NCBI GenBank assembly: GCA_001786745.1
Contig: MFTF01000018.1
Span: 23,577-87,576 of the forward strand
Direction of reading: 5' to 3'
Source of the DNA: Candidatus Nomurabacteria bacterium RIFCSPHIGHO2_01_FULL_36_23
GTDB taxonomy: Bacteria; Patescibacteriota; Minisyncoccia; Phycocordibacterales; UBA9973
DNA length: 64,000 nucleotides
Shown here: positions 977 to 54,880 of the stretch, one piece after another
How the letters are laid out: every line of letters begins with the position of its first letter
Numbering within the stretch: the stretch's first letter is position 1
Program-made: the position numbers and the translations under genes
The notes under the pieces: model-generated
Seen by the model: only the letters and a program-made list of their open reading frames with translations
What the model was told of the DNA's origin: nothing
Databases searched by the model: none

Positions 977-2201
977 AATAAAGATGTTATTTTCATATAG
1001 GGCGAAATCAAATAATGGAGAAATTTTGGAAGGCACATTAAATGCTACAGATCGTTTTTCTCTTGCTCGTGAATTAAAATCTCGCGGGTATATTCCTTTA
1101 TCAGTTTCAGAAAAACGAGATAATTTTTTTAGTGAAATATCAAAAGTTACAAATATATTCTCAAAAGTAAGCATTGGAGAACAGATTATTTTAACAAAAA
1201 ATTTAAGCGGAATGCTCAAAGCCGGACTTTCTCTTTATCGGGCGCTGTCAGTTTTAGAAAAGCAGACAAGGAATTCAGCGCTTACTAAAATTTTAATGTC
1301 TCTGTCCAGTGATATAAATTCCGGAGAGACGCTTTCCTTCGGGCTGGCAAAATTCCCTGATGTTTTTTCCAAGCTTTTTGTGTCAATGACGCGCGCTGGC
1401 GAAGAATCAGGCAATCTCTCCGGCGCTCTCTTTGATATCGGTATGAATTTGGAAAAAGCGCATTCTTTAACAAAGAAAATACGCGGAGCGCTCATTTATC
1501 CCGGAGTAATTCTTTCCGCCATGGTTGTTATTGGCGTTTTAATGTTTGCTTTTGTGGTGCCAACTCTGGCCGGCACCTTTAAAGAGCTTGGCGTTGTTTT
1601 ACCCATATCCACTCGCATTATTGTTTGGCTTGGTAATTTTTTCTCAAACAATTTGACATTAACTTTTGTCAGTATTGTGACAGTGGCTTTTTGCATATAT
1701 TTCCTCTTTCGCGCTAGATTTATAGCAAAATATATAGATTTTATTATTTTAAGACTTCCCATCATTGGCAATATAGCAAAAGAATTAAATACTGCCCGCA
1801 CCGCTCGAACCATATCTTCCCTTTTACTTGCTGGGGTTTCTATTACTAGGGCGATTGAAATCACCGAAGATGTGGTGCAAAATATTTATTACAAACAAGT
1901 TTTAAATCAAGCGAAAACATCGGTGGAAAAGGGGACTCCATTTTTTCAAGTTTTTGGAGCTAATAACAATCTTTATCCCATAATGATGTCCGAAATGATT
2001 CAAGTTGGAGAAGAAACCGGAAAACTGTCAGATATGTTGCTTCAAATTGCTTTGTTTTATGAAGAAGAAATTGAAAATAAAACAAAAAATCTTTCGACGA
2101 TTATTGAACCAGTGCTAATGATAGTAATTGGAGCTGGGGTGGGATTTTTCGCCATATCAATGATTTCACCGCTTTATTCAGTTTTAGATAATATAAAATA
2201 A
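960..2201 (+). CDS. pilC: Type IV pilus assembly platform protein PilC (GspF family)
   Basis: 413 aa polytopic membrane protein with GspF-type repeats (EETGKLSDML). It overlaps the pilB stop, suggesting an operon. Confidence 0.8.
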   Translation: MLFQSKIKMLFSYRAKSNNGEILEGTLNATDRFSLARELKSRGYIPLSVSEKRDNFFSEISKVTNIFSKVSIGEQIILTKNLSGMLKAGLSLYRALSVLEKQTRNSALTKILMSLSSDINSGETLSFGLAKFPDVFSKLFVSMTRAGEESGNLSGALFDIGMNLEKAHSLTKKIRGALIYPGVILSAMVVIGVLMFAFVVPTLAGTFKELGVVLPISTRIIVWLGNFFSNNLTLTFVSIVTVAFCIYFLFRARFIAKYIDFIILRLPIIGNIAKELNTARTARTISSLLLAGVSITRAIEITEDVVQNIYYKQVLNQAKTSVEKGTPFFQVFGANNNLYPIMMSEMIQVGEETGKLSDMLLQIALFYEEEIENKTKNLSTIIEPVLMIVIGAGVGFFAISMISPLYSVLDNIK

Positions 2202-2656
2202 TGCTTAATTTTAAAAAGGGACTTACAATCTTGGAAGTGATAATTGTTTTATCAATTCTGGGGTTTTTGATTGCAATTGTTTTGCCTTCTTTTAAAACAA
2301 TGAGGGATAATCAGATTTTAAAGTCCGCTATTTCTAACGTATCTTCATCTCTTAATAAAGCCAAGTCACAAACGCTTGCCTCGGTAGATTCTTCAGAGTA
2401 CGGAGTGCATTTTGAGTTCGATAAAATAATAATTTTTAAAGGTCAAACCTTTTCGTCCTCTGATGCCAACAACGAAAATATACTTATTTCTCCTCCGGCA
2501 TTTATCTCCGCCATAAATCTGACGGATGGCGTGGCTGATCTTTACTTTAATAAATTGTCTGGAACACCAGATAGAACAGGAACAATTACTATATCCATAT
2601 CTTCTTTGTCAAAAATCATTACTATATCCGCTACCGGCGCAATTAGTGTAAATTAA
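2201..2656 (+). CDS. Prepilin-type N-terminal cleavage/methylation domain protein (minor pilin or pseudopilin)
   Basis: N-terminus KKGLTILEVIIVLSILGFLIA matches a class III signal (G|LTILE) followed by a hydrophobic helix. Confidence 0.6.
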   Translation: MLNFKKGLTILEVIIVLSILGFLIAIVLPSFKTMRDNQILKSAISNVSSSLNKAKSQTLASVDSSEYGVHFEFDKIIIFKGQTFSSSDANNENILISPPAFISAINLTDGVADLYFNKLSGTPDRTGTITISISSLSKIITISATGAISVN

Positions 2657-2661
2657 AATAT

Positions 2662-2706
2662 AAAAGGACGGTCCTTAAAAGAGTTTCCCCAAGGACAGTC
2701 CTTAAA
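2662..2706. repeat. Palindromic repeat element family 1, intergenic copy (AAGGACGGTCCTT-aaaagagtttcccc-AAGGACAGTCCTT)
   Basis: Two 13-nt palindromic units AAGGACNGTCCTT. A near-identical 44-nt segment lies in-frame in recJ at 8680-8722. Confidence 0.8.
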
Positions 2707-2737: not shown

Positions 2738-3220
2738 ATGAAAACTGTCGGTAGTTTAGAAAAATTAAGAGGTTTTATGATGGTTGAGATACTGATTGTT
2801 ATTTCTATTATTGTCGTTTCGGTTTTAGCGGCTTTGGCTGTTGCTCAAAAATCTATTTATTTATCTAGACAATCTCTGCATCAATCTCAGGCGGCTTTTC
2901 TTCTTGAGGAAGGGGCAGAAGCGGTTAGAATTGCGCGCGATAATGCTTGGGTTAATGTTTCCAGCTTGAATCTTTCCACAGATTATTATTTATCTTTCTC
3001 CGGCGGAACTTGGACTCTGTCCACTTCTCCTTCGGGGATTGATATTTTTACCAGAAAAATTATATTTTCTTCCGCTTATAGAGATGCAAATGAAGATCTT
3101 ATTTCTTCCGGCGCATTAGATAGCCAGACAAGACTTGCGACCATAGATGTGTCTTGGCTAGAAGGCGGGCAAACTTTTTCCAAAACTATTCAATTTTATT
3201 TAGCTGATATTTTTTCGTAA
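2738..3220 (+). CDS. Minor pilin-like protein (prepilin-type N-terminus)
   Basis: N-terminus RGFMMVEILIVISIIVVSVLAAL carries a G-F-x-x-x-E motif plus a TM helix. Confidence 0.55.
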   Translation: MKTVGSLEKLRGFMMVEILIVISIIVVSVLAALAVAQKSIYLSRQSLHQSQAAFLLEEGAEAVRIARDNAWVNVSSLNLSTDYYLSFSGGTWTLSTSPSGIDIFTRKIIFSSAYRDANEDLISSGALDSQTRLATIDVSWLEGGQTFSKTIQFYLADIFS

Positions 3221-3223
3221 TCT

Positions 3224-3724
3224 ATGGAAAATAAAATACGAAAAATCAAAGGAGGTTACACATTAGTTGAAATGCTTTTTTACATTGCCCTTTTTTCCGT
3301 GCTTGCTTTGGCAATTATTACCTCTCTTATTTCCATGACCAAAGCTTTTAGAGTAACCACGGCGCAAGCCGATTTAGTTCAAAGTTCTGCTGTCATGGAA
3401 CGGATATCGCGGGAAATCCGACAAGCATATGAGATAATTTCTATCAGCGCAAACGATTTGAAACTTAATGCTAAAGATGAATCAGATAACAACAAAACCG
3501 TAGAGTTTTTACTTTTTGGCTCTAATTTACAACTTATTGAAAATAATGTATTTACAGGAGATCTAAATTCTTCAAATATTCAAATAACCGCTCTATCTTT
3601 TACGGAAATTACAACACCAGCGGGAAAAGCAGTCAAAGCAAGTTTGTCAGTAAAAAGCGTGAGAGATGCAACAGGCCGAATTGAAAATTTTTATAATACA
3701 GTCGTATTGCGAGGCGACTATTGA
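3224..3724 (+). CDS. Minor pilin-like protein (prepilin-type N-terminus)
   Basis: N-terminus KGGYTLVEMLFYIALFSVLALAII carries a G-x-T-L-x-E motif. Confidence 0.55.
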   Translation: MENKIRKIKGGYTLVEMLFYIALFSVLALAIITSLISMTKAFRVTTAQADLVQSSAVMERISREIRQAYEIISISANDLKLNAKDESDNNKTVEFLLFGSNLQLIENNVFTGDLNSSNIQITALSFTEITTPAGKAVKASLSVKSVRDATGRIENFYNTVVLRGDY

Positions 3725-7339: not shown

Positions 7340-9073
7340 ATGGAAAAATATGGAGAATTATTGCGGAGTTTGCTCGCCAAAAGAGGAATTACTGATCCGG
7401 CGCAAGCTGAGATTTTTTTAAACCCGAATTATGAGCGTGATTTGCATGACCCCTTTTTAATGAAAGATATGGAGCGAGCTTGCGTTCGGCTTTTTGAGGC
7501 AATTGAAAATGAAGAAAAGATTATTATTTACGCGGACTATGATTGCGATGGAATTCCCGGAGCAGTTATAATTCAGGACTTATTTTCTGCCATAGGCGGA
7601 TCCGCCTTGGACGGAAAAAAAATAAATTATGAAGTCTATATGCCCCAAAGAAATTCGGAAGGATATGGGCTGAACCTTGATGCCGTTAAAAGTTTTGCCG
7701 AATCGGGAGTAAAACTTTTAATAACCATTGATCTTGGCATTACGGCTGTAGCTGAAGTAGCGCAAGCAGAGGCGGATGGTATTGATGTGATAATCACAGA
7801 TCATCACTTGCCTCGCCGAAGCGAAAGCGAAGGCGGGTTTGCCCCCCATGATCTTCCGCGCGCTTATGCAATCTTAAATCCAAAAGTAGATAACTATCCG
7901 GAGAAAATGCTATGCGGAGCCGGAGTGGTTTTTAAATTAGTACAGGGATTTGTCAAGAAATACAGTGAGTATTTTAATATAAAAAATGGTTCTGAAAAAT
8001 GGATGCTAGACATGGCGGGGCTTGCCACGTTTTCTGACATGGTTCCACTTTTAGGTGAAAATCGCGTCATTGCCTATTTTGGGATGAAGGTTTTAAGAAA
8101 ATCTCCTCGTCCGGGATTGCAAAAACTTCTGGCAAAAATGAACATTGATCAGAAATATTTAACCGAAGATGATATCGGTTTTATGATAGTCCCGCGATTG
8201 AATGCCGCTTCTCGAATGGATGATCCGATGCGCGCCTTTGAACTTCTTTCTACGCAGTCCGAGACAGAAGCCGGCGCACTCACAGAGCATTTATCAAAAA
8301 TAAATGATGAAAGGAAAAACGCTGTTATGGGAATTATGCGCGAAGTACACAAGACATTTGAAAAATTTGAAACGCGCGAAACAAGAGAAGTGATAGTCGT
8401 AGGCAATCCAAGATGGCGAGTGGGTGTTTTGGGTTTAGTGGCAGGAAAAATTTTAGACGAATACAAAAAACCTGTTTTTGTTTGGGGTAAAGATGAAAAT
8501 GATTGTATTAAAGGATCTTGTCGAAGTAATGGGTCGGTATCTGTGGTTGAACTTATGACAGAAACTAATGAATCTTTTATAGATTTTGGTGGTCATGAGC
8601 TGGCGGGCGGGTTTACAGTGCATCATGATAAAATTCACTTTTTAGAAGAAGCTCTATCGATGACTTTCGTTGAAATACAAAAAGGACAGTCCTTAAAGAA
8701 TTCCCCAGGGATTGTCCTTGGGAAGGAAGCCGACATTGCGGGCGATTTAAGTTTGGTAAACATGAAAAATTGGCGTGAAATAGAAAAACTTGCTCCTCTG
8801 GGTTTAGGAAATCCAAAACCTGTTTTTTTATTTAAAAATGTAAAAATAGAAAAAATTAAAAAGTTCGGCAAAAACGGCTCGGGAGAACATCTAGAAATTA
8901 TTTTTTCTGATGCAAACAATAAAAAAGTCAAGGCAATTTCTTTTTTTTCCAACCACAATTCTTTTAAAATACCTTTAATGGAGAAAAAAATAGTTAATCT
9001 TTTAGCCACTTTTGATTTGTCTCGTTTTCAAGGCAAAGAAGAGTTAAGATTAAGAATAGTTGATATCAAATGA
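7340..9073 (+). CDS. recJ: Single-stranded-DNA-specific exonuclease RecJ (DHH family)
   Basis: Motifs DYDCDGI, ITDHHLP and DHHA1-type GGH..AGG are present. It contains an in-frame palindromic element at 8680-8722. Confidence 0.85.
   Translation: MEKYGELLRSLLAKRGITDPAQAEIFLNPNYERDLHDPFLMKDMERACVRLFEAIENEEKIIIYADYDCDGIPGAVIIQDLFSAIGGSALDGKKINYEVYMPQRNSEGYGLNLDAVKSFAESGVKLLITIDLGITAVAEVAQAEADGIDVIITDHHLPRRSESEGGFAPHDLPRAYAILNPKVDNYPEKMLCGAGVVFKLVQGFVKKYSEYFNIKNGSEKWMLDMAGLATFSDMVPLLGENRVIAYFGMKVLRKSPRPGLQKLLAKMNIDQKYLTEDDIGFMIVPRLNAASRMDDPMRAFELLSTQSETEAGALTEHLSKINDERKNAVMGIMREVHKTFEKFETRETREVIVVGNPRWRVGVLGLVAGKILDEYKKPVFVWGKDENDCIKGSCRSNGSVSVVELMTETNESFIDFGGHELAGGFTVHHDKIHFLEEALSMTFVEIQKGQSLKNSPGIVLGKEADIAGDLSLVNMKNWREIEKLAPLGLGNPKPVFLFKNVKIEKIKKFGKNGSGEHLEIIFSDANNKKVKAISFFSNHNSFKIPLMEKKIVNLLATFDLSRFQGKEELRLRIVDIK
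8680..8722. repeat. Palindromic repeat element family 1, in-frame copy inside recJ (encodes KGQSLKNSPGIVLG)
   Basis: Sequence aaaaggacagtccttaaagaattccccagggattgtccttggg matches 2662-2706 apart from a 2-nt indel and a few substitutions. Confidence 0.75.
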
Positions 9074-14682: not shown

Positions 14683-15238
14683 AAAACCCGTAGTTATTTT
14701 TATTTATGGACAAATTGCAGTAGGGAAGCTTACTGTAGCAAAAATTTTAAGTAAAAAACTTGGATATAAGTTAACGCACAACCATTCATTAAATGATTTT
14801 GTTGATGAAGTATTTACTCGAGGTATGAATGCTCATAATTCAATAATTGAAAAAATAAGATATGACTTGTTAGAAAATGCAGTTAAAGCAAAAATTAATT
14901 TTGTCACTACTCATTGCTATGCACATAATTTTGTTTCTACCACTGGGCTTTCAGATTCTAAATATGTTGAAACATTAGAGAAAAAACTTACAAAATTGGG
15001 TGCAGGATTTTATCCTATTCAGCTTAAAGCTACTGATGAGGAATTATTGCGTAGAGTAAATGCGGATTCTCGCAAAGCATTTAAAAAATTAAAAGACAAA
15101 AAAATTATGAGAGAGTTAACACTCCAACACGATTGGCAAACTTCTCCCAAATTAAAAAATAATCTTATAATTGACAATACTAATCTTTCTCCCAAAAAAG
15201 TTGCACAAATGATTATTAAACATTTCAAACTGAACTAA
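14618..15238 (+). CDS. P-loop NTPase or kinase-like protein with a deviant Walker A
   Basis: Motif IYGQIAVGKLTVAKIL is GxxxxGK followed by L instead of S/T. The likely start is the internal Met at 14651. It overlaps the tmk 3' end. Confidence 0.4.
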   Translation: MILVKIFIIKFMKKLKKSSKNKKPVVIFIYGQIAVGKLTVAKILSKKLGYKLTHNHSLNDFVDEVFTRGMNAHNSIIEKIRYDLLENAVKAKINFVTTHCYAHNFVSTTGLSDSKYVETLEKKLTKLGAGFYPIQLKATDEELLRRVNADSRKAFKKLKDKKIMRELTLQHDWQTSPKLKNNLIIDNTNLSPKKVAQMIIKHFKLN

Positions 15239-15248
15239 AAAACCTATT

Positions 15249-15282
15249 TAGCATTAATAAGCGGTCGCACACTATTGCTAAA
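15249..15282. repeat. 34-nt palindrome-containing direct repeat, copy A (tagcattaataagcggtcgcacactattgctaaa); abuts the stop codon of the 15283-15846 gene
   Basis: 32/34 identical to 15857-15890. It contains the outer inverted repeat TAGCATTA/TAATGCTA. Confidence 0.85.
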
Positions 15283-15846
15283 CTAGCATAAGTTAAATTT
15301 CTTCATTAAATGCAGTTCATTGTCTATTTTATCAGCAAGAACGAATCGCACATACCTCCTGGCATTATAAAGCTCCAAAATAAATTCAATTTCATTATCG
15401 CAAGGATAAGGGAAAACCAATACAGATTTTTGAAGTTCAATGAGACCTATTTCTCGAAAATGAAAACGCAAAGAGTCACGTAACCTTTTTAATTTCTCAG
15501 GAATATCAAACATCACTATACGCCATTTCTTGTCCCATTTTGTCGGTTTTTTAATCCCCATTTTATCAATGTTAAATTTAAGAGCTTTTTGTTTTCCTTC
15601 TTTGTTTAAAATAAGAATAGTTGTTCCGTCTTTGTGATATTGTTCTTTAACTAAATGAGAAGTATATAAAGAATTGATGGCTCTCTGTAATGCTTGACGA
15701 TTTTCTTTCTCCCATTCTTTTGGTATTTGTTTCAAAATCCACAGCTGTTTCCTGGCTGATTTAGTTAGGCCAAGTGCAAGACCGGCAAGTAAAAGTAAAA
15801 GCACTTTCCTTTTTAGATTTCCTATTCTTGGCATGTTGTGTCCCAT
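15283..15846 (-). CDS. Hypothetical DNA-binding protein, family member 1: N-terminal winged-helix-like region plus C-terminal Cas2/VapD-like motif
   Basis: C-terminal motif WRIVMFDIPEKLKRLRDSLRFHFREIGLIELQKSVLVFPYP...RYVRFVLAD is shared with ORFs at 23442 and 28481. The gene is bracketed by 34-nt repeats. Confidence 0.6.
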   Translation of the reverse strand: MGHNMPRIGNLKRKVLLLLLAGLALGLTKSARKQLWILKQIPKEWEKENRQALQRAINSLYTSHLVKEQYHKDGTTILILNKEGKQKALKFNIDKMGIKKPTKWDKKWRIVMFDIPEKLKRLRDSLRFHFREIGLIELQKSVLVFPYPCDNEIEFILELYNARRYVRFVLADKIDNELHLMKKFNLC

Positions 15847-15856
15847 CTGCTTATTA

Positions 15857-15890
15857 TAGCATTAATAAGCGGTCGCATACTAATGCTAAA
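15857..15890. repeat. 34-nt palindrome-containing direct repeat, copy B (tagcattaataagcggtcgcatactaatgctaaa); 10 nt upstream of the start codon of the 15283-15846 gene
   Basis: Direct repeat of 15249-15282. Perfect 8-bp inverted termini with a 16-nt spacer. Confidence 0.85.
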
Positions 15891-15918
15891 TTGGTTTTTG
15901 CGTGGAAAAGATATATAA

Positions 15919-18611: not shown

Positions 18612-21600
18612 ATGATTGAAAACGAAAAGAATAAGAAATCTGATATGGCGTTTCGCGAGGAGCGGGTTTTGGAATTCTGGCGGGAAAATAAAATTTTTGA
18701 GAAATCACTAGAAAAAGAATCACCGAAAGGGGAATTTATTTTTTACGATGGCCCAGCCACCGCAAATGCCATTCCGCCCCTTCACTCGCTAGTGCCGCGT
18801 GTTTTCAAAGACGCTATTCCTCGTTATAAAACAATGCGTGGCTATCATGTCCGTCGCAAAGTTGGTTGGGATACTCATGGCTTGCCGGTGGAACTGCAAA
18901 TAGAAAAAAAACTTGGTTTAAAATCCAAAAAAGAAATTGAAGAATATGGAATCGCAGCTTTCAATAAGCTTTGCAAAGACAGCGTATGGGAATTTATTGG
19001 AGCGTGGAATAAGTTTACTGCTCGGAGCGGTTACTGGATAGATTTTAAAAATCCATACATTACTTACGAGAATCCATATATTGAATCCATTTGGAATATT
19101 GTAAAAAAAATAAATGATCAAGGACTTTTATACAAAGACTATAGAGTAGTACCCTGGTGTCCGCGTTGTGGTACGGTTTTGTCCTCGCATGAGCTTGCGC
19201 AAGGATATGAAGACGTGAAAGATTTGTCGGTTTATATAAAATTTAAAGCAAAAGGGCAAGACAATACTTATATCCTCGCATGGACGACGACACCCTGGAC
19301 ATTACCTGGAAATGTTGCACTTGCGATTGGTGAAAAGATTGAATATGTAAAAATAAAAGTTGGAAATGAAATATTAATTTTAGCTAAAGCGCGACTTCCA
19401 ATACTCACTGATCCATATGAAATTATTGATGAAGTTAAGGGCAAAGATTTGGTTGGTTTAGAATACGAACCACTTTTTCCATATTTAAAAGAACAAATTG
19501 AGCAAAAGGGAGAAAAAACAGACAAAGCATTCAAGGTTTATTCAGCGAATTTTGTAAATACGGAAGAAGGAACCGGGATTGTGCATACCGCCGTTATGTA
19601 TGGTCAAGACGATTTTGAACTTGGCGCAAAAATTGGTCTGCCCAAATATCACCTGGTAAATCCTGAAGGAAAATTTATAAAAGGCACAGGGTTTTTAGAA
19701 GATAGATTTGTCAAAGAAAAAGATGAAAATGGCAAACCTACTTTAGATGTGGATATTATTAAATACCTGACAGACAAAAATCTATTTTTAAAAAAAGAAA
19801 ATTACGAGCATCCGTATCCACATTGCTGGCGTTGCTATACAGCGCTCATATATTATGCGCGCGATTCTTGGTATATCAAAATGTCTGATCCGAAAATTAA
19901 GAAACAATTAATCAGCGAAAATAAAAAAATAAATTGGGAACCAGCGCATATTAGAGATGGTCGTTTCGGCGAATGGCTAAGAGAGATTAAAGATTGGGCA
20001 ATATCCCGCGAACGTTATTGGGGCACGCCCCTACCTGTCTGGATAAATCAAAACGATGAAAAATTAATAATCGGCTCAATTGATGAATTAAGAAAATATT
20101 CCCAAAAATCCGGCAATGAATATTTTGTATTGCGTCACGGAGAAGCGGAAAACATTATCCTTAATATCACTACTTCAAATAAATCCGAATATGACAAGTA
20201 TCATTTGACCGAAAAAGGAAAAAAAGAGGTACTAGCTTCAGCTGGGAATTTAAAAAATAAAAAAATTGACCTAATTATTTCATCTCCCCTTATTCGCACG
20301 AAAGAGACGGCGGAGATCATCGCTGAAGCAATAGGATTTTCCAAAAGTGATGTTATTTATGATGAACGACTTCGCGAGGTGGATACGGGGGATTTTCGCG
20401 ATAGAAAAAACACCGAGTATCACTCTTTCTTTTTTTCACTAGAAGAAAAATTCACCAAAAGACCGCCCAATGGGGAAAATTTGACTGAGCTTCGGCGTCG
20501 AATAATGGAATTTCTCTATGAAACTGAAAAAAAATATCAAGAAAAAAAGATTTTAATTGTATCTCACGAATATGCTGTTTGGATGATGTTTACTGGAACC
20601 TTCGGTTGGAGTAATAAGCAAAGCGCAGAAGAAAAAAGCCATAAAGATGATTTTATTAAAACAGGGGAAGTGCTGGGTTTACCTTTTGTGCCATTACCAC
20701 ATGATGATAATTTTGAACTTGATTTACATCGTCCATACATTGACGATATTGTGCTAGAAAAAAACAATAAAGAATTTTATCGCACAAAAGAAGTGATGGA
20801 TGTTTGGTTTGACTCCGGGACAATGCCTTTTGCGCAAGATCACTATCCTTTTTCCGCCAGAAACGAACTCGCCTCTGGCGGAGACAATCAAAAATCACAA
20901 AAACTTCTTTACCCTGCAGATTTTATCTCTGAAGGAATTGATCAAACTCGGGGGTGGTTTTATACTTTGCACGCCGTTGGAGTGCTTATGGGTCGTGGCA
21001 AGGCGTATAAAAACGTCATCTGTCTGGGGCATTTACTGGATGCTATGGGCAAAAAAATGTCTAAATCTCTCGGCAATATCGTTGATCCGTGGGTAATGAT
21101 GGATAAATATGGCGTGGATACGCTTCGTCTCTGGATGTATTCAATCAATCAACCGGGCGAGTCTAAAAATTTTAATGAAAAAACAGTATCTTTACTGCAT
21201 CAACAAGTTTTCACTCTATTGTATAATGTGCTTGCTTTTTATGAATTATACAGAGATAAAGAATTAGAAAATAATGACAGACCTAAATCAAAAAATATTT
21301 TAGACCAATGGATTTTGGCGCGATTAACCGAATTAATTAGTGAATCCACAAAAAAAATGGAAGATTATAAATTACTTGAGCCGACTAGAGCAATTAGAGA
21401 TTTTATCGGAGATCTCTCCACTTGGTATTTGCGCCGTTCTCGCGAGCGAATTAAAGAGGAGGCAACAAATCCCGAACTAGAGCAAGCTCAATACGGGGCA
21501 AGAGCAACTTTATATTTTGTTCTAAAAAATTTAACAAAAGTTATGGCACCACTAGCACCATTTGCAGCCGAAGATATTTGGTTAAAACTCAAGAATGGCA

Positions 21601-28422: not shown

Positions 28423-28457
28423 ATTTACTTAACATACGCTATAGCGTGAGTCTAGTA
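28423..28457. repeat. 35-nt palindrome-containing direct repeat (atttacttaacatacgctatagcgtgagtctagta); 23 nt upstream of the 28481 gene
   Basis: 29/35 identical to 29104-29138. Core ATACGCTATAGCGT (13/14 palindrome). Confidence 0.8.
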
Positions 28458-28480
28458 AATTATGATAAGATAATTAAATT

Positions 28481-29070
28481 ATGGGGAATATAGAAAAAGA
28501 AGTAAAAAAAAGAGACAAAAGAGCAAGGTTGCAAAAGATTATTTTATCCACTATTTTTGCTCTTGGTGGCTTAAGTGTCGCTTTAATAGCTCCGAAAATG
28601 ACAAAAGTATTGGTAAAGTTTGAACCGGAATTTATGAAAGATAAGTATAGAAAATACTCTTTTAATAGATCACTGGTTAGACTCAAAGATGCTGGTTTTA
28701 TTGTTTTTGAAAAAACAGAAAGAGGGAATTTTGCCTGTCTGACCCCAAAAGGAAAAGAAAAGTTGCGCCAGCTAACAATTCATAATTTTAAAATAAAAAA
28801 ACCTAAAAATGGGATGGAAAATGGAGATTACTCATGTTTGATATTAAAGAAAAAAGAAAAAGCACTAGAGATAAAATTCGGCATAATTTATTTAAAATTG
28901 GATTTATAAGATTGCAAGATAGCGTCTGGGTATATCCTTATGATTGTGAAGATTTTATTAACTTAATGAAAGCTGATTTTAAAATAGGGAAAGACTTGTT
29001 GTATGTAGTAGCGGATAAAATTGAAAATGATAAATTCCTCGCCCAACATTTTAAATTATTTAATAGTTAA
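28481..29070 (+). pseudogene. Family member 3 of the wHTH plus Cas2/VapD-like family, disrupted by a -1 frameshift in an A5 run near 28805-28809 (track ORFs 28481..28909 and 28834..29070)
   Basis: Frame 1 upstream of 28834 reads KWDGKWRLLMFDIKEK, matching KWDKKWRIVMFDIPEK of member 1. The upstream frame carries the wHTH part. It could be a sequencing error in a homopolymer. Confidence 0.5.
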
Positions 29071-29103: not shown

Positions 29104-29138
29104 ATTTACATAAGATACGCTATAGCGTAGTTATAGTA
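29104..29138. repeat. 35-nt palindrome-containing direct repeat (atttacataagatacgctatagcgtagttatagta); 33 nt downstream of the 28481-29070 gene
   Basis: Perfect 14-bp palindrome TACGCTATAGCGTA. Direct repeat of 28423-28457. Confidence 0.8.
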
Positions 29139-29180
29139 GATTTGAGTTCAATAAAAAACTTTAGTATAATACTTATTATG

Positions 29181-39825: not shown

Positions 39826-40974
39826 ATGAACAATTCATTGAAAAATTTTTTTGCAAAAATAAAGAGTATTGTCAGTGACCCAGAGAGTAGTGCTGTCGGT
39901 ATTGATATTGGCTCTTCGGCAATTAAAGTGGTTGAAATTAAAAAAAAAAGAGGCAAAGTGATACTTGAAACTTATGGAGCAATAGCGCTTGGTCCCTATG
40001 CCAGTCTTGATGCAGGACAAGTTACCAATCTTTCAGTTGAAAAAATAGCAGAAGCTTTAAAGGAAGTTTTAAAGCAATCCGGCGTATCTAGTTCTTCTTT
40101 AGCTTTTTCTATTCCAGTGCAAGCAAGTTTAATTTTTACCATTGAACTTCCGGCGCAAATAAAGGAAAATGAAGTGGCGGTGATTATTTCCACAGAAGCG
40201 CGTAAATATATTCCAGTGCCAATTACGGAAGTTTCTCTTGATTATTTTATATTGCCGAAAAAAGAATCTTCTTTTGAAGAAGCAAACACTGACATAGCTG
40301 ATATAAAAAATGCCAATCTTCCACCAGCGCAAAAAGAAAAAACAAATGTGCTTGTCGTTGCTACACAAAATGATGCAGTTTCCAGGTTTCGTTCCATTGT
40401 TTCTCAATCTGCTCTTTCCGCTTCTTTCTTTGAAATTGAAATATTTTCTTCAATTAGAGCTAATTTTGAACATGAACTTTCCCCTGTCCTTTTAATGGAT
40501 TTTGGCGCATCGCGTACTAAACTTTCTATTGTTGAATTCGGCATGATTAAGGGTTATCATTCAATAGAAAGAGGCGGAGCTGATATATCTTTGTCCATTT
40601 CTCAATCTTTAGGTGTTCCTTTTTTTGAAGCAGAAAAAATGAAAAAAGAATTTGGTCTTTTTGAAAATCCCGCAGAAAAAAGTTTATCTGATATTATTAA
40701 AATTCATACTAATTATATTTTTTCTGAGACAAATAATCTATTATTGGGGTATGAAAAGAAATATAATAGAACGATAAGCAAGGTAATATTTTCGGGCGGA
40801 GGCTCTCTTTTAAAAGGATTAACAGAAGAAGCGGTCAATAATTTTCGAGCTGAAATAGTAATTGGTCATCCATTTAATAAAGTGGGCGCGCCGGCATTTT
40901 TAGAGAGAGTTCTTGGGGCGATTGGTCCTGAATTCGCGGTTGCCCTCGGTTTAGCATTGCGAAAATTACAATAA
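39826..40974 (+). CDS. pilM: Type IV pilus assembly protein PilM (actin-like ATPase)
   Basis: Motif VGIDIGSSAIKVVEI and an actin-fold phosphate loop. Confidence 0.8.
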   Translation: MNNSLKNFFAKIKSIVSDPESSAVGIDIGSSAIKVVEIKKKRGKVILETYGAIALGPYASLDAGQVTNLSVEKIAEALKEVLKQSGVSSSSLAFSIPVQASLIFTIELPAQIKENEVAVIISTEARKYIPVPITEVSLDYFILPKKESSFEEANTDIADIKNANLPPAQKEKTNVLVVATQNDAVSRFRSIVSQSALSASFFEIEIFSSIRANFEHELSPVLLMDFGASRTKLSIVEFGMIKGYHSIERGGADISLSISQSLGVPFFEAEKMKKEFGLFENPAEKSLSDIIKIHTNYIFSETNNLLLGYEKKYNRTISKVIFSGGGSLLKGLTEEAVNNFRAEIVIGHPFNKVGAPAFLERVLGAIGPEFAVALGLALRKLQ

Positions 40975-41066
40975 AAACTATTAACAAGAACAGTTCTTGC
41001 CAATAGTAAAGTTATACACAATATACTTCATTAAAAGTTGTTTTTGTAATATAATAATATGGTAAA

Positions 41067-52735: not shown

Positions 52736-54880
<2,145 letters not shown>

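What the first reader, a model, noticed from the sequence alone, without database searches (positions are those of the whole stretch)
8680..8722. Second palindromic element family (AAGGACNGTCCTT units) found in-frame in recJ and intergenically after a pseudopilin gene
A 44-45-nt unit built from two 13-nt palindromes occurs intergenically at 2662-2706 (AAGGACGGTCCTT-aaaagagtttcccc-AAGGACAGTCCTT). It also occurs in the recJ coding sequence at 8680-8722 (AAGGACAGTCCTT-aaagaattcccc-AGGGATTGTCCTT), where it encodes KGQSLKNSPGIVLG, 15 codons in frame. This is a second, unrelated example of the same phenomenon as in ligA.
Basis: partly seen in the sequence, partly recalled or inferred. Interest (0 to 1): 0.7.

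Follow-up and report, generated by a model that had tools for sequence, protein, structure and literature searches.

The report
REP-like palindrome doublet inside recJ
A 38-40-base hairpin-forming repeat (two copies of AAGGACNGTCCTT) sits both between two pilin genes and, translated in frame, inside the essential repair gene recJ; it belongs to a family of such repeats spread through the tiny 'candidate phyla radiation' bacteria, where the same palindrome flanks a dedicated transposase-like gene, so it is a REP/REPIN-type selfish repeat that these genomes tolerate inside proteins.

Summary
Paired AAGGACNGTCCTT cores lie at 2664-2703 (intergenic) and 8682-8719 (recJ codons 448-460). Both fold as 13-bp hairpins.

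Most RecJ orthologues lack the segment. It falls in a disordered loop between the DHHA1 and OB domains. Its synonymous sites are far more conserved than those of flanking codons (0.875 vs 0.51). Ten orthologous pilin intergenic gaps are empty.

A truncated scan of one genome per species gave at least 120 loci, about 80% labelled Patescibacteria. In 98 of 116 doublets the two arms are exact inverted repeats. 61% lie inside long ORFs, including LigA, UvrB, UvrC, GyrB, PolA, RecG, SecA and tRNA synthetases.

In other Patescibacteria the same core, or the compensated variant AAGAACNGTTCTT, directly flanks genes for HUH/Tyr Y1 transposases. These proteins are closest to E. coli TnpA-REP (RAYT). This held in 4 of 4 homologues picked by protein similarity alone.

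Best reading: a REP/REPIN family with a cognate RAYT-like enzyme. It tolerates in-frame insertion because the core has no stop codon in any of six frames. Intragenic REPs are already described in other phyla, so this is a new member of a known kind, apparently undescribed in this superphylum. No RAYT gene lies in the window, and mobility is inferred.

The parts
2664..2703 (.). Intergenic REP doublet (REPIN-like). The arms are 2664-2676 (AAGGACGGTCCTT) and 2691-2703 (AAGGACAGTCCTT), with the loop AAAAGAGTTTCCCC between them. It starts 7 nt after the stop codon of the pseudopilin ORF 2201-2656.
   Evidence: The sequence and core matches are. It folds as a hairpin of -15.2 kcal/mol, z -3.7. The orthologous gap is empty in 10 related loci. 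No T-run terminator lies on the + strand.
8682..8719 (+). REP doublet inside recJ, translated in frame (codons 448-460, within the peptide KGQSLKNSPGIVLG). Arm 1 is exact (8682-8694). Arm 2 is decayed (AGGGATTGTCCTT, 8707-8719) but still pairs through two G-U pairs in the sense strand.
   Evidence: Searches give the sequence, reading frame and fold. Most orthologues lack the segment. AlphaFold2 confidence is below 50 for residues 449-462. Synonymous-site identity is 0.875 in the element against 0.51 in the flanks.
7340..9073 (+). The host gene recJ (577 aa), with the DHH motif intact. The element sits in the linker between DHHA1 (aa 352-440) and RecJ_OB (aa 465-575).
   Evidence: Pfam domains are. 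A 100% identical protein, P0001, and Nomurabacteria/Paceibacterota orthologues at 72-78% identity are. The structure model has pTM 0.84.
40978..41006 (.). Single REP of the variant 'dialect'. The core AAGAACAGTTCTT (40986-40998) sits at the apex of the imperfect palindrome CTATTaaCAAGAACAGTTCTTGccAATAG, just after the stop codon of the PilM-like ORF 39826-40974.
   Evidence: The same variant core flanks RAYT-like genes in L209, L210 and L211.
2201..2656 (+). Upstream pseudopilin gene (N-terminal methylation motif). It gives the context for the intergenic copy.
   Evidence: Pfam N_methyl match.

Best explanation
The unit is a REP doublet (REPIN-like element). Two inverted copies of the 13-nt core AAGGACNGTCCTT are separated by a 12-14-nt loop and fold into a 13-bp hairpin in single-stranded nucleic acid.

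It belongs to a family dispersed through Patescibacteria (CPR) genomes. In other CPR genomes the same core flanks genes for RAYT-like HUH/Tyr (Y1) transposases.

By analogy with characterised REP-RAYT systems, the enzyme probably recognises the hairpin in single-stranded DNA. It would cut and rejoin it, and so occasionally place copies at new sites without target duplications.

A copy that lands in a gene survives only if it stays in frame, has no stop codon, and falls in a tolerant loop. The core has no stop codon in any of its six frames. It reads as RTVL, G(Q/R/P/L)S(L/F) or KD(C/G/R/S)P. Many such insertions therefore persist.

In this window one copy sits just downstream of a pilin gene; this gain is specific to the lineage. 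An older copy sits in the disordered DHHA1-OB linker of RecJ. It is shared with a subset of related species, and its second arm is partly decayed here.

**Shown:** the repeat family, the hairpin, the presence/absence across orthologues, the nucleotide-level conservation, and the adjacency to RAYT-like genes in other genomes.

**Inferred:** that the RAYT-like enzyme mobilises the repeat, that the intermediate is single-stranded DNA, and that the recJ copy has no function of its own.
For: **Family and hairpin**
- The genome scan gave at least 120 loci, 97 of them labelled as Patescibacteria lineages.
- The central N of the two arms is complementary in 98 of 116 doublets, against about 25% by chance.
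- Loop subfamilies are shared between genomes, for example AAGAGAGTTTCCCC in about 23 copies.

**Insertion**
- Most RecJ orthologues lack the segment.
- Ten orthologous intergenic gaps are empty.
- LigA from three genomes carries inserts at three different sites.

**Constraint at the DNA level**
- Third-position identity at identical residues is 0.875 in the element and 0.51 in the flanks.

**Tolerance**
- The insertion coincides with a coil of pLDDT below 50 between domains.
- The core is open in 6 of 6 frames.

**Link to RAYT**
- Y1 transposase homologues in L112, L041, L083 and L025 are flanked by the exact core.
- Four further homologues were chosen by protein similarity only. L212 is flanked by AAGGACGGTCCTT and AAGGACCGTCCTT. 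L209, L210 and L211 are flanked by the compensated variant AAGAACNGTTCTT.
- The proteins pass the Pfam Y1_Tnp threshold.
- Their best NCBIfam match is REP_Tyr_transpos.
- HUH and Tyr are invariant.
- A profile of them hits PDB 4ER8 (TnpA-REP) at 1.9e-5, ahead of ISDra2 TnpA at 0.009.
- RAYT-like genes flanked by other palindromes (L208, L011, L143, L100) show cognate REP-RAYT pairing.

**Precedent**
- Intragenic REPs, often in replication and repair genes, are described in PMC3733652.
Against: - No RAYT-like ORF lies in the 64-kb window, even at E of 10 or less. The rest of this genome was not available.
- Copy number is low. The window has 3 loci, positive genomes have about 1 per 30 kb, and about 400 kb of related RecJ loci have almost none. 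Classical REPs number in the hundreds per genome.
- The RAYT-like proteins score 25-51 bits against the 80-bit cut-off of the NCBIfam equivalog. They are also longer (about 210-250 aa) than E. coli TnpA-REP (165 aa).
- The window's doublets carry no GTAG or CGTC tag.
- Orientation of the REPs that flank RAYT genes, judged by the central base, is mixed. It is inverted in L212 and L083 and direct in L210 and L211.
- The recJ 'insertion' adds a net 7-9 codons, not 13.
- No transposition event or enzymatic activity has been observed.
Confidence: 0.72

Rival explanations
1. The hairpin is a host-functional element, and its sequence is conserved for that reason rather than through mobility. Candidate roles are mRNA stabiliser or attenuator, or a binding site for a conserved nucleoid, regulatory or RNA-binding protein. 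On this view the RAYT association would be secondary.
For: - The core is conserved across many CPR classes.
- The intergenic copies in the window lie 3-11 nt after stop codons. This is typical of REPs that act on mRNA (PMC3733652).
- Synonymous sites in the recJ copy are conserved.
- The recJ copy keeps its pairing through G-U pairs in the sense strand.
Against: - The element is absent from most orthologous sites. It is therefore not required at any given locus.
- Host genes are unrelated to one another.
- No Rfam family matches.
- No terminator-like T-run lies on the coding strand.
- Intergenic copies of the main subfamily show no orientation bias relative to genes, 5 vs 5.
- The core flanks a transposase-like gene on both sides in 8 genomes.
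Confidence: 0.12
2. The Y1 genes are ordinary autonomous IS200/IS605-type insertion sequences. The doublets would then be their solo ends or MITE derivatives, not a domesticated single-copy RAYT with REPINs.
For: - The gene plus its flanking palindromes is about 0.8 kb, the size of an IS200.
- Pfam places the proteins in Y1_Tnp, 'Transposase IS200 like'.
- The NCBIfam RAYT equivalog cut-off is not reached.
- Many homologues sit on very short contigs, as repeated insertion sequences do.
Against: - The profile is closer to TnpA-REP (4ER8) than to the IS200/IS605 TnpA of ISDra2.
- The best NCBIfam match is the RAYT model.
- The flanking sequences are the same short palindrome on both sides, not distinct left and right ends. 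That palindrome is also dispersed without the gene.
Confidence: 0.1
3. The core is a DNA-uptake-type or chromosome-organising signal. These organisms are naturally competent, and comEC and type IV pilus genes lie next to it.
For: - ComEC and pilus genes lie in the window.
- The palindromic core is conserved across the superphylum.
- Inverted pairs and enrichment in genome-maintenance genes (17 of 44 identified hosts) recall Neisseria uptake sequences (my own knowledge).
Against: - Density is about 1 per 20-30 kb, not about 1 per kb.
- Many related genomes have none in 20-kb stretches.
- Cores occur as hairpin doublets with complementary central bases. A duplex-binding signal would not need this.
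- The association with a transposase.
Confidence: 0.03
4. The match is coincidental. The RecJ linker is simply hypervariable and happens to resemble the intergenic sequence.
For: The linker is hypervariable and carries several different peptides in different lineages.
Against: - An exact 13-mer plus a homologous loop.
- Zero of 100 shuffles reach the observed count.
- Perfect doublets lie at the same recJ site in other species despite saturated synonymous divergence.
Confidence: 0.02

Closest known systems
REP / REPIN elements with their RAYT (REP-associated tyrosine transposase), as in E. coli and Pseudomonas (Nunvar 2010; Bertels & Rainey 2011, PMC3116915; Messing 2012, PDB 4ER8)
   Same: - It is a short palindromic unit that forms a hairpin.
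- It occurs mostly as inverted doublets.
- It is dispersed without a coding gene of its own.
- The same palindrome flanks an HUH/Tyr Y1 transposase-like gene.
- Different RAYT-like genes are flanked by different cognate palindromes.
- No target-site duplication is seen.
   Different: - The majority of doublets (61%) lie inside ORFs, in frame.
- Copy number is low.
- The doublets have no GTAG or CGTC tag.
- The core is itself a perfect palindrome with one central base.
- The associated proteins are longer and score below the NCBIfam RAYT cut-off.
- The host is Patescibacteria, for which I found no report.
Intragenic GTAG/CGTC REPs (Di Nocera, De Gregorio & Rocco 2013, BMC Genomics 14:522, PMC3733652)
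   Same: REP monomers or dimers are inserted in frame in known proteins and encode about 10-30 residues. Many lie in replication and repair genes such as uvrA, uvrB, the DNA ligase gene and dnaE, and in tRNA synthetase genes.
   Different: Those are a minority of the REPs in Opitutus, Rickettsia, Thauera and others, and they carry the tetranucleotide tags. Here intragenic copies predominate, and the core sequence is unrelated.
Rickettsia palindromic elements (RPE; Ogata et al. 2000)
   Same: A selfish palindromic repeat tolerated as an in-frame insertion in essential genes, and located in loops that do not disturb the fold.
   Different: RPEs are 100-150 bp, encode 30-50 residues and are restricted to Rickettsia, and no dedicated transposase is known for them. 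This unit is 38-45 nt and is linked to a RAYT-like gene.
IS200/IS605 insertion sequences (TnpA Y1 transposase acting on subterminal hairpins in single-stranded DNA)
   Same: The same enzyme superfamily, hairpin recognition, and the absence of target duplications.
   Different: The dispersed units carry no gene. Both flanks of the gene carry the same palindrome. The protein profile is closer to TnpA-REP.

Membership tests
REP / REPIN | Short (20-40 nt) palindromic unit able to form a stem-loop | tested here: met
   Both window copies form 13-bp stems with z-scores of -3.7 and -2.5. Stems are often extended by copy-specific pairs.
REP / REPIN | Two REPs in inverted orientation forming a doublet hairpin | tested here: met
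   The central bases of the two arms are complementary in 98 of 116 doublets. In the recJ copy the central pair is A/T. In the intergenic copy it is a G/A mismatch.
REP / REPIN | Many dispersed copies within one genome | tested here: inconclusive
   The 64-kb window has 3 loci. Genomes that have the element carry about 1 extra cluster per 30 kb. One MAG, JBAXYM01, gave at least 7 loci in a truncated scan. The whole source genome was not available.
REP / REPIN | A cognate RAYT gene flanked by the same REP | tested here: inconclusive
   This is met in other CPR genomes: L112, L041, L083, L025 and L212 with the exact core, and L209-L211 with the variant core. No such gene lies in the window.
REP / REPIN | Extragenic location | tested here: not met
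   70 of 115 doublets lie in ORFs of at least 120 codons, against 84% for random positions. One of the window's copies is inside recJ.
REP / REPIN | Conserved GTAG or CGTC tetranucleotide at one end | tested here: not met
   The tag is absent from both window doublets. It appears only in some copies that flank RAYT genes, such as GCGTAGC-core in L083 and core-GTAGG in L112.
RAYT (the associated protein, in other genomes) | Y1 HUH transposase domain with conserved HUH and catalytic Tyr | tested here: met
   Pfam PF01797 scores 28-36 bits against a cut-off of 23. H76, H78 and Y136 are invariant in 11 sequences.
RAYT (the associated protein, in other genomes) | Reaches the NCBIfam REP_Tyr_transpos equivalog cut-off | tested here: not met
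   It is the best-scoring family, but at 25-51 bits against a cut-off of 80.
RAYT (the associated protein, in other genomes) | Closer to TnpA-REP than to IS200/IS605 TnpA | tested here: met
   The profile hits 4ER8 at E 1.9e-5 and 2XM3/2XMA at about 0.009.
RAYT (the associated protein, in other genomes) | Single copy per genome, inherited vertically, and able to cleave its REP | not testable with these tools
   This needs complete genomes and biochemistry.
Rickettsia palindromic elements | In-frame insertion in conserved protein genes | tested here: met
   Seen in RecJ, LigA, UvrB, PolA, SecA and others.
Rickettsia palindromic elements | Consensus of about 100-150 bp belonging to the RPE-1 to RPE-10 families | tested here: not met
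   The unit is 38-45 nt. The host is Patescibacteria.
MITE of a DDE transposon | Terminal inverted repeats plus a target-site duplication | tested here: not met
   No direct repeat flanks either window copy. The filled-versus-empty comparison shows no duplication.
DNA uptake sequence | Very high genomic density, about one per kb | tested here: not met
   The window has 3 exact cores in 64 kb. Most 20-kb stretches of related genomes have none.
Intrinsic terminator | GC-rich hairpin followed by a T-run on the transcribed strand | tested here: not met
   No site was found on the + strand at 2664-2703.

The most novel reading that the evidence does not exclude
A single REP core and its co-varying RAYT-like enzyme family have been maintained across the whole Patescibacteria superphylum. 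Its doublets are a systematic source of in-frame peptide insertions, preferentially in DNA replication, repair and translation genes. This would make it the main generator of the lineage-specific loops seen in CPR housekeeping proteins. It could also act in cis, as an ssDNA or mRNA hairpin, on the expression or repair of those genes.
Probability: 0.15. Interest if true: 0.7.

Novelty: new member of a known kind. Interest (0 to 1): 0.5.

Why it matters
**Annotation.** CPR/Patescibacteria genomes are very small, and their proteins are known for unexplained lineage-specific insertions. This result gives a concrete, testable source for some of them: REP-type hairpin repeats, with an associated Y1 transposase family, that survive inside essential genes. 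These short hairpin-encoded peptides should not be read as functional motifs.

**REPIN-RAYT biology.** The result extends these systems to a superphylum where I found no report of them. It also supplies natural 'dialects' of the core that co-vary with the enzyme: AAGGAC, AAGAAC and AAGGTC. These could be used to study recognition specificity.

**Assembly.** These repeats may explain why many of the transposase homologues sit on very short contigs.

Tried and rejected
- **Rfam.** The whole window at gathering threshold gave only one tRNA. The element region at E of 10 or less gave only noise.
- **Phage origin.** The doublet pattern has 0 matches in 2.9 million viral contigs.
- **Terminator.** No T-run site lies on the coding strand.
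- **Target-site duplication.** None was seen.
- **Selection on loops to avoid stop codons.** Doublets have 4.18 open frames and loop-shuffled controls have 4.11, so there is no signal.
- **Strand or orientation bias of the main loop subfamily.** Intergenic copies split 5 vs 5 and coding copies 11 vs 4, which is not significant.
- **RNA-level versus DNA-level pairing.** G-U versus A-C changes in decayed recJ copies gave too few cases (inspection).
- **Monophyly of the recJ insertion.** A neighbour-joining tree of 120 RecJ proteins shows a patchy distribution but is poorly resolved. I could not decide between one ancient insertion with losses and several insertions. P0113/L204 carries a doublet in a different reading phase and of a different subfamily at the same site, which argues for at least two events.
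- **Literature.** Searches combining palindromic element, in-frame insertion or RAYT with Patescibacteria or Candidate Phyla Radiation found nothing relevant.

**Limits of the data.**
- The 120 loci are not a defined random sample.
- Taxon labels of some automated bins (14 labelled as non-CPR) were not verified.
Full report
**1. The observation**

The window is AT-rich, at about 35% GC. It carries type IV pilus genes, recJ, an RNase H gene and comEC. The RecJ protein is 72-78% identical to RecJ of Candidatus Nomurabacteria and Paceibacterota.

Exact AAGGACNGTCCTT cores lie at 2664-2676, 2691-2703 and 8682-8694. A two-mismatch partner lies at 8707-8719. None of 100 shuffles reached the observed number of matches.

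The two units align over about 45 nt, loop included. Each folds into a 13-bp hairpin.

The second unit is inside ORF 7340-9073, which has DHH, DHHA1 and RecJ_OB domains. It is read in frame as residues 448-461, KGQSLKNSPGIVLG. The peptide has 14 residues, not 15, and the coordinates are off by about 2 nt.

**2. Is the recJ segment an insertion?**

In an alignment of 120 RecJ homologues most have a short linker at this position, for example KVKRDKTENEIIFDIKSDL. A subset of about 16 clusters carries GQSLKNS.RTVL. Other clusters carry quite different peptides at the same site, such as TPSALGTSPYVGGGQVG and KRSDLKGAQGLSLK.

DNA from related loci shows that the GQSL...RTVL peptides are encoded by perfect AAGGACAGTCCTT...AAGGACTGTCCTT doublets in several species (L122, L008, L091, L207). 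In others the copies are decayed or compensated (L201, L203, L205, L202).

L204 has a doublet of another subfamily, read in a different phase, at the same place. L208 has a doublet with the coordinated core variant AAGGTCNGACCTT.

At residues that are identical between species, third-codon positions agree in 51% of comparisons in the flanking 100 codons. Inside the element they agree in 87.5%. The nucleotide sequence is therefore maintained, not just the peptide.

The net length gain relative to 'empty' orthologues is only 7-9 codons, so the original boundaries are blurred.

An AlphaFold2 model (pTM 0.84) places residues 449-462 in a coil with pLDDT below 50. The coil lies between the last DHHA1 helix and the OB domain. 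That is where an insertion should be tolerated.

**3. The intergenic copy**

It begins 7 nt after the stop codon of a pseudopilin gene. The orthologous gap between the same two pilin genes in ten related loci lacks it. Those gaps are 20-92 nt long, and some hold unrelated hairpins. This copy is therefore a gain specific to this lineage.

L202 and L207 have the recJ element but not the intergenic one. The two copies are independent events of different age.

There is no T-run terminator on the coding strand and no Rfam match.

**4. The family**

I scanned one genome per prokaryotic species for two cores 8-20 nt apart. Of these, 97 are labelled as Patescibacteria lineages: Nomura-, Kaiser-, Zambryski-, Adler-, Vogel-, Berkel-, Beckwith-, Roizman-, Saccharibacteria and others. 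The pattern has no match in viral contigs.

The central bases of the two arms are complementary in 98 of 116 doublets. The arms are therefore inverted repeats. The stem is often lengthened by copy-specific pairs.

Loops fall into subfamilies shared between genomes. The window's loops belong to the commonest one, AAGAGAGTTTCCCC.

Single cores also occur, at the apex of longer palindromes.

Density is modest. In genomes that have the element there is about one extra cluster per 30 kb. In about 400 kb around the RecJ genes of relatives there are almost none, and in non-CPR loci there are none.

**5. Location in genes**

70 of 115 doublets (61%) lie in ORFs of at least 120 codons. For random positions in the same loci the figure is 84%.

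The host ORFs are ordinary housekeeping genes. They include PheT, PurH, LigA (three different sites), SMC, UvrB, UvrC, GyrB, PolA, RecG, Fpg, SecA, SecDF, MetRS, ArgRS, RF, TsaD and CTP synthase.

Aligning LigA from the window, L049 and L087 shows that each insert is private to its lineage.

Seventeen of the 44 identified hosts act in DNA replication or repair. I did not compute a baseline, and some of these are orthologous sites.

The core has no stop codon in any of six frames. The loops show no extra depletion of stop codons.

**6. The associated enzyme**

Next to recJ in L208 is a gene that hits Pfam Y1_Tnp. It is flanked, and interrupted in frame, by another palindrome, CACTTGGGAGCnnnGCTCCCAAGTG.

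A tblastn search with this protein found homologues in ten of my loci. In L112, L041, L083 and L025 the gene is bracketed by exact AAGGACNGTCCTT cores. In three of these (L112, L083, L025) cores lie within tens of nucleotides of both ends. In L041 one core is about 60 nt from one end and the nearest on the other side is about 180 nt away. In L011, L143 and L100 the gene is bracketed by other palindromes.

Those loci had been selected for containing the core, so I made an independent test. The L025 protein has 3,376 homologue clusters at E of 1e-10 or less. Where they are named, the name is 'transposase' of Nomura-, Staskawicz-, Zambryski- or Parcubacteria.

Four of these were chosen only for having long contigs. 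All four are flanked on both sides, within about 50 nt, by the core or a close variant:
- L212 is flanked by AAGGACGGTCCTT and AAGGACCGTCCTT.
- L209, L210 and L211 are flanked by the doubly compensated variant AAGAACNGTTCTT.

The same variant occurs once in the window, at 40986-40998. It sits in a palindrome just after the stop codon of a PilM-like gene.

The evidence on the protein family is as follows:
- The proteins pass the Pfam Y1_Tnp threshold.
- Their best NCBIfam family is REP_Tyr_transpos, though below its cut-off.
- HUH and Tyr are invariant.
- As a profile they hit E. coli TnpA-REP (4ER8) at 1.9e-5, ahead of ISDra2 TnpA.

No such gene is present in the window.

**7. Interpretation**

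A short palindrome occurs mostly as inverted doublets. It is dispersed without a gene of its own. The same palindrome brackets an HUH/Tyr transposase-like gene. Different enzymes are paired with different palindromes. This is the defining architecture of REP/REPIN-RAYT systems (PMC3116915, PMC5581495).

By analogy, the enzyme recognises the hairpin in single-stranded DNA and moves it. That step is inferred, not shown.

In-frame REPs, often in replication and repair genes, were already described for GTAG- and CGTC-tagged REPs in other phyla (PMC3733652). They are conceptually the same as Rickettsia RPEs (PMC10969869).

This family differs in several ways:
- The host is Patescibacteria.
- Most copies are intragenic.
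- Copy number is low.
- The doublets lack the tetranucleotide tag.
- The core is self-palindromic.
- The enzyme subfamily is divergent.

I found no paper linking REPs or RAYTs to this superphylum.

**8. Verdict**

The element is best filed as a new member of the REP/REPIN-RAYT kind, notable for living inside essential genes.

Open points are whether this genome has the enzyme, whether the repeats still move, and whether the bias towards genome-maintenance genes is real.

Noticed in passing
window 53204-53317 (ligA, ORF 52739-54880): LigA carries a lineage-specific insert, [27 protein letters not shown]. It is encoded by a long hairpin of -48.8 kcal/mol with arms CCTCCCCCTTATCAAGGGGAGG and TCCCCTTGATAAGGGGGG. 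This is a different palindrome family from the one studied here. A second 13-residue insert, [13 protein letters not shown], lies at about 54290-54330 and has no strong hairpin.
   Followed up: partly
window 7598-7624 and 7814-7852 (recJ): The same RecJ has two more lineage-specific insertions in AlphaFold2 low-confidence loops. GGSALDGKK contains the perfect palindrome GGCGGATCCGCC. RRSESEGGFAPHD is encoded by a weaker GC-rich hairpin. Similar inserts are seen in a few orthologues.
   Followed up: partly
L208 6520-7250: A RAYT-like gene next to recJ is flanked on both sides by CACTTGGGAGCnnnGCTCCCAAGTG and interrupted in frame by the same sequence. Its catalytic motif looks degenerate (VYVNLNY instead of YIHLNP).
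   Followed up: partly
L011 ~2830-3580; L143 ~20250-21000; L100 ~1780-2620: Other RAYT-like genes are bracketed by their own palindromes: TGCGATGAGATAACATCTCATCGCA, AGAGGGGGAGGTTGAGCCTCCCCCTCT, and GGGGACAGGCACAATTATT paired with its complement. This suggests several cognate REP-RAYT pairs in Patescibacteria.
   Followed up: no
L025 4656-4720; L089 3703-3807; also L001, L017, L109, L086: The core also occurs in head-to-tail arrays with periods of 20 nt (AGGACGGTCCTTGCTACATT) or 31 nt. In L025 the array lies directly beside the RAYT-like gene.
   Followed up: no
RecJ linker in homologues (P0029, P0036, P0062, P0071 and others; P0043, P0095): The same DHHA1-OB linker holds at least three other palindrome-encoded peptides in other lineages, for example TSPYVGGG, which back-translates to a palindrome such as TCCCCCTACGTAGGGGGA (DNA not checked). 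It is a hot spot for hairpin insertions.
   Followed up: partly
window 15238-15285 and 15852-15899: Two 34-48-nt copies of TAGCATTAATAAGCGGTCGCAYACTAWTGCTAAA, 94% identical, bracket a 187-aa ORF on the minus strand that has a PaaX_M (Cas2-like) domain. They may be operators or another small mobile unit.
   Followed up: partly
window 28423-28461 and 29104-29142: A 39-nt repeat, ATTTACWTAASATACGCTATAGCGT..., 82% identical between copies, lies on either side of ORF 28481-28909, which has no Pfam match.
   Followed up: no
L208 139-198; L139 and L142 pilin intergenic gaps: The orthologous pilin1-pilin2 gap holds unrelated hairpins in other species: TTCCCGAGGGTTAGCCTC paired with GAGGCTAACCCTCGGGGAA, and ATGACCC paired with GGGTCAT. 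Different palindromes therefore occupy the same intergenic spot.
   Followed up: no
one search hit list: Many RAYT-like homologues are found only on contigs of 1-3 kb. This fits assemblies breaking at these repeats.
   Followed up: no
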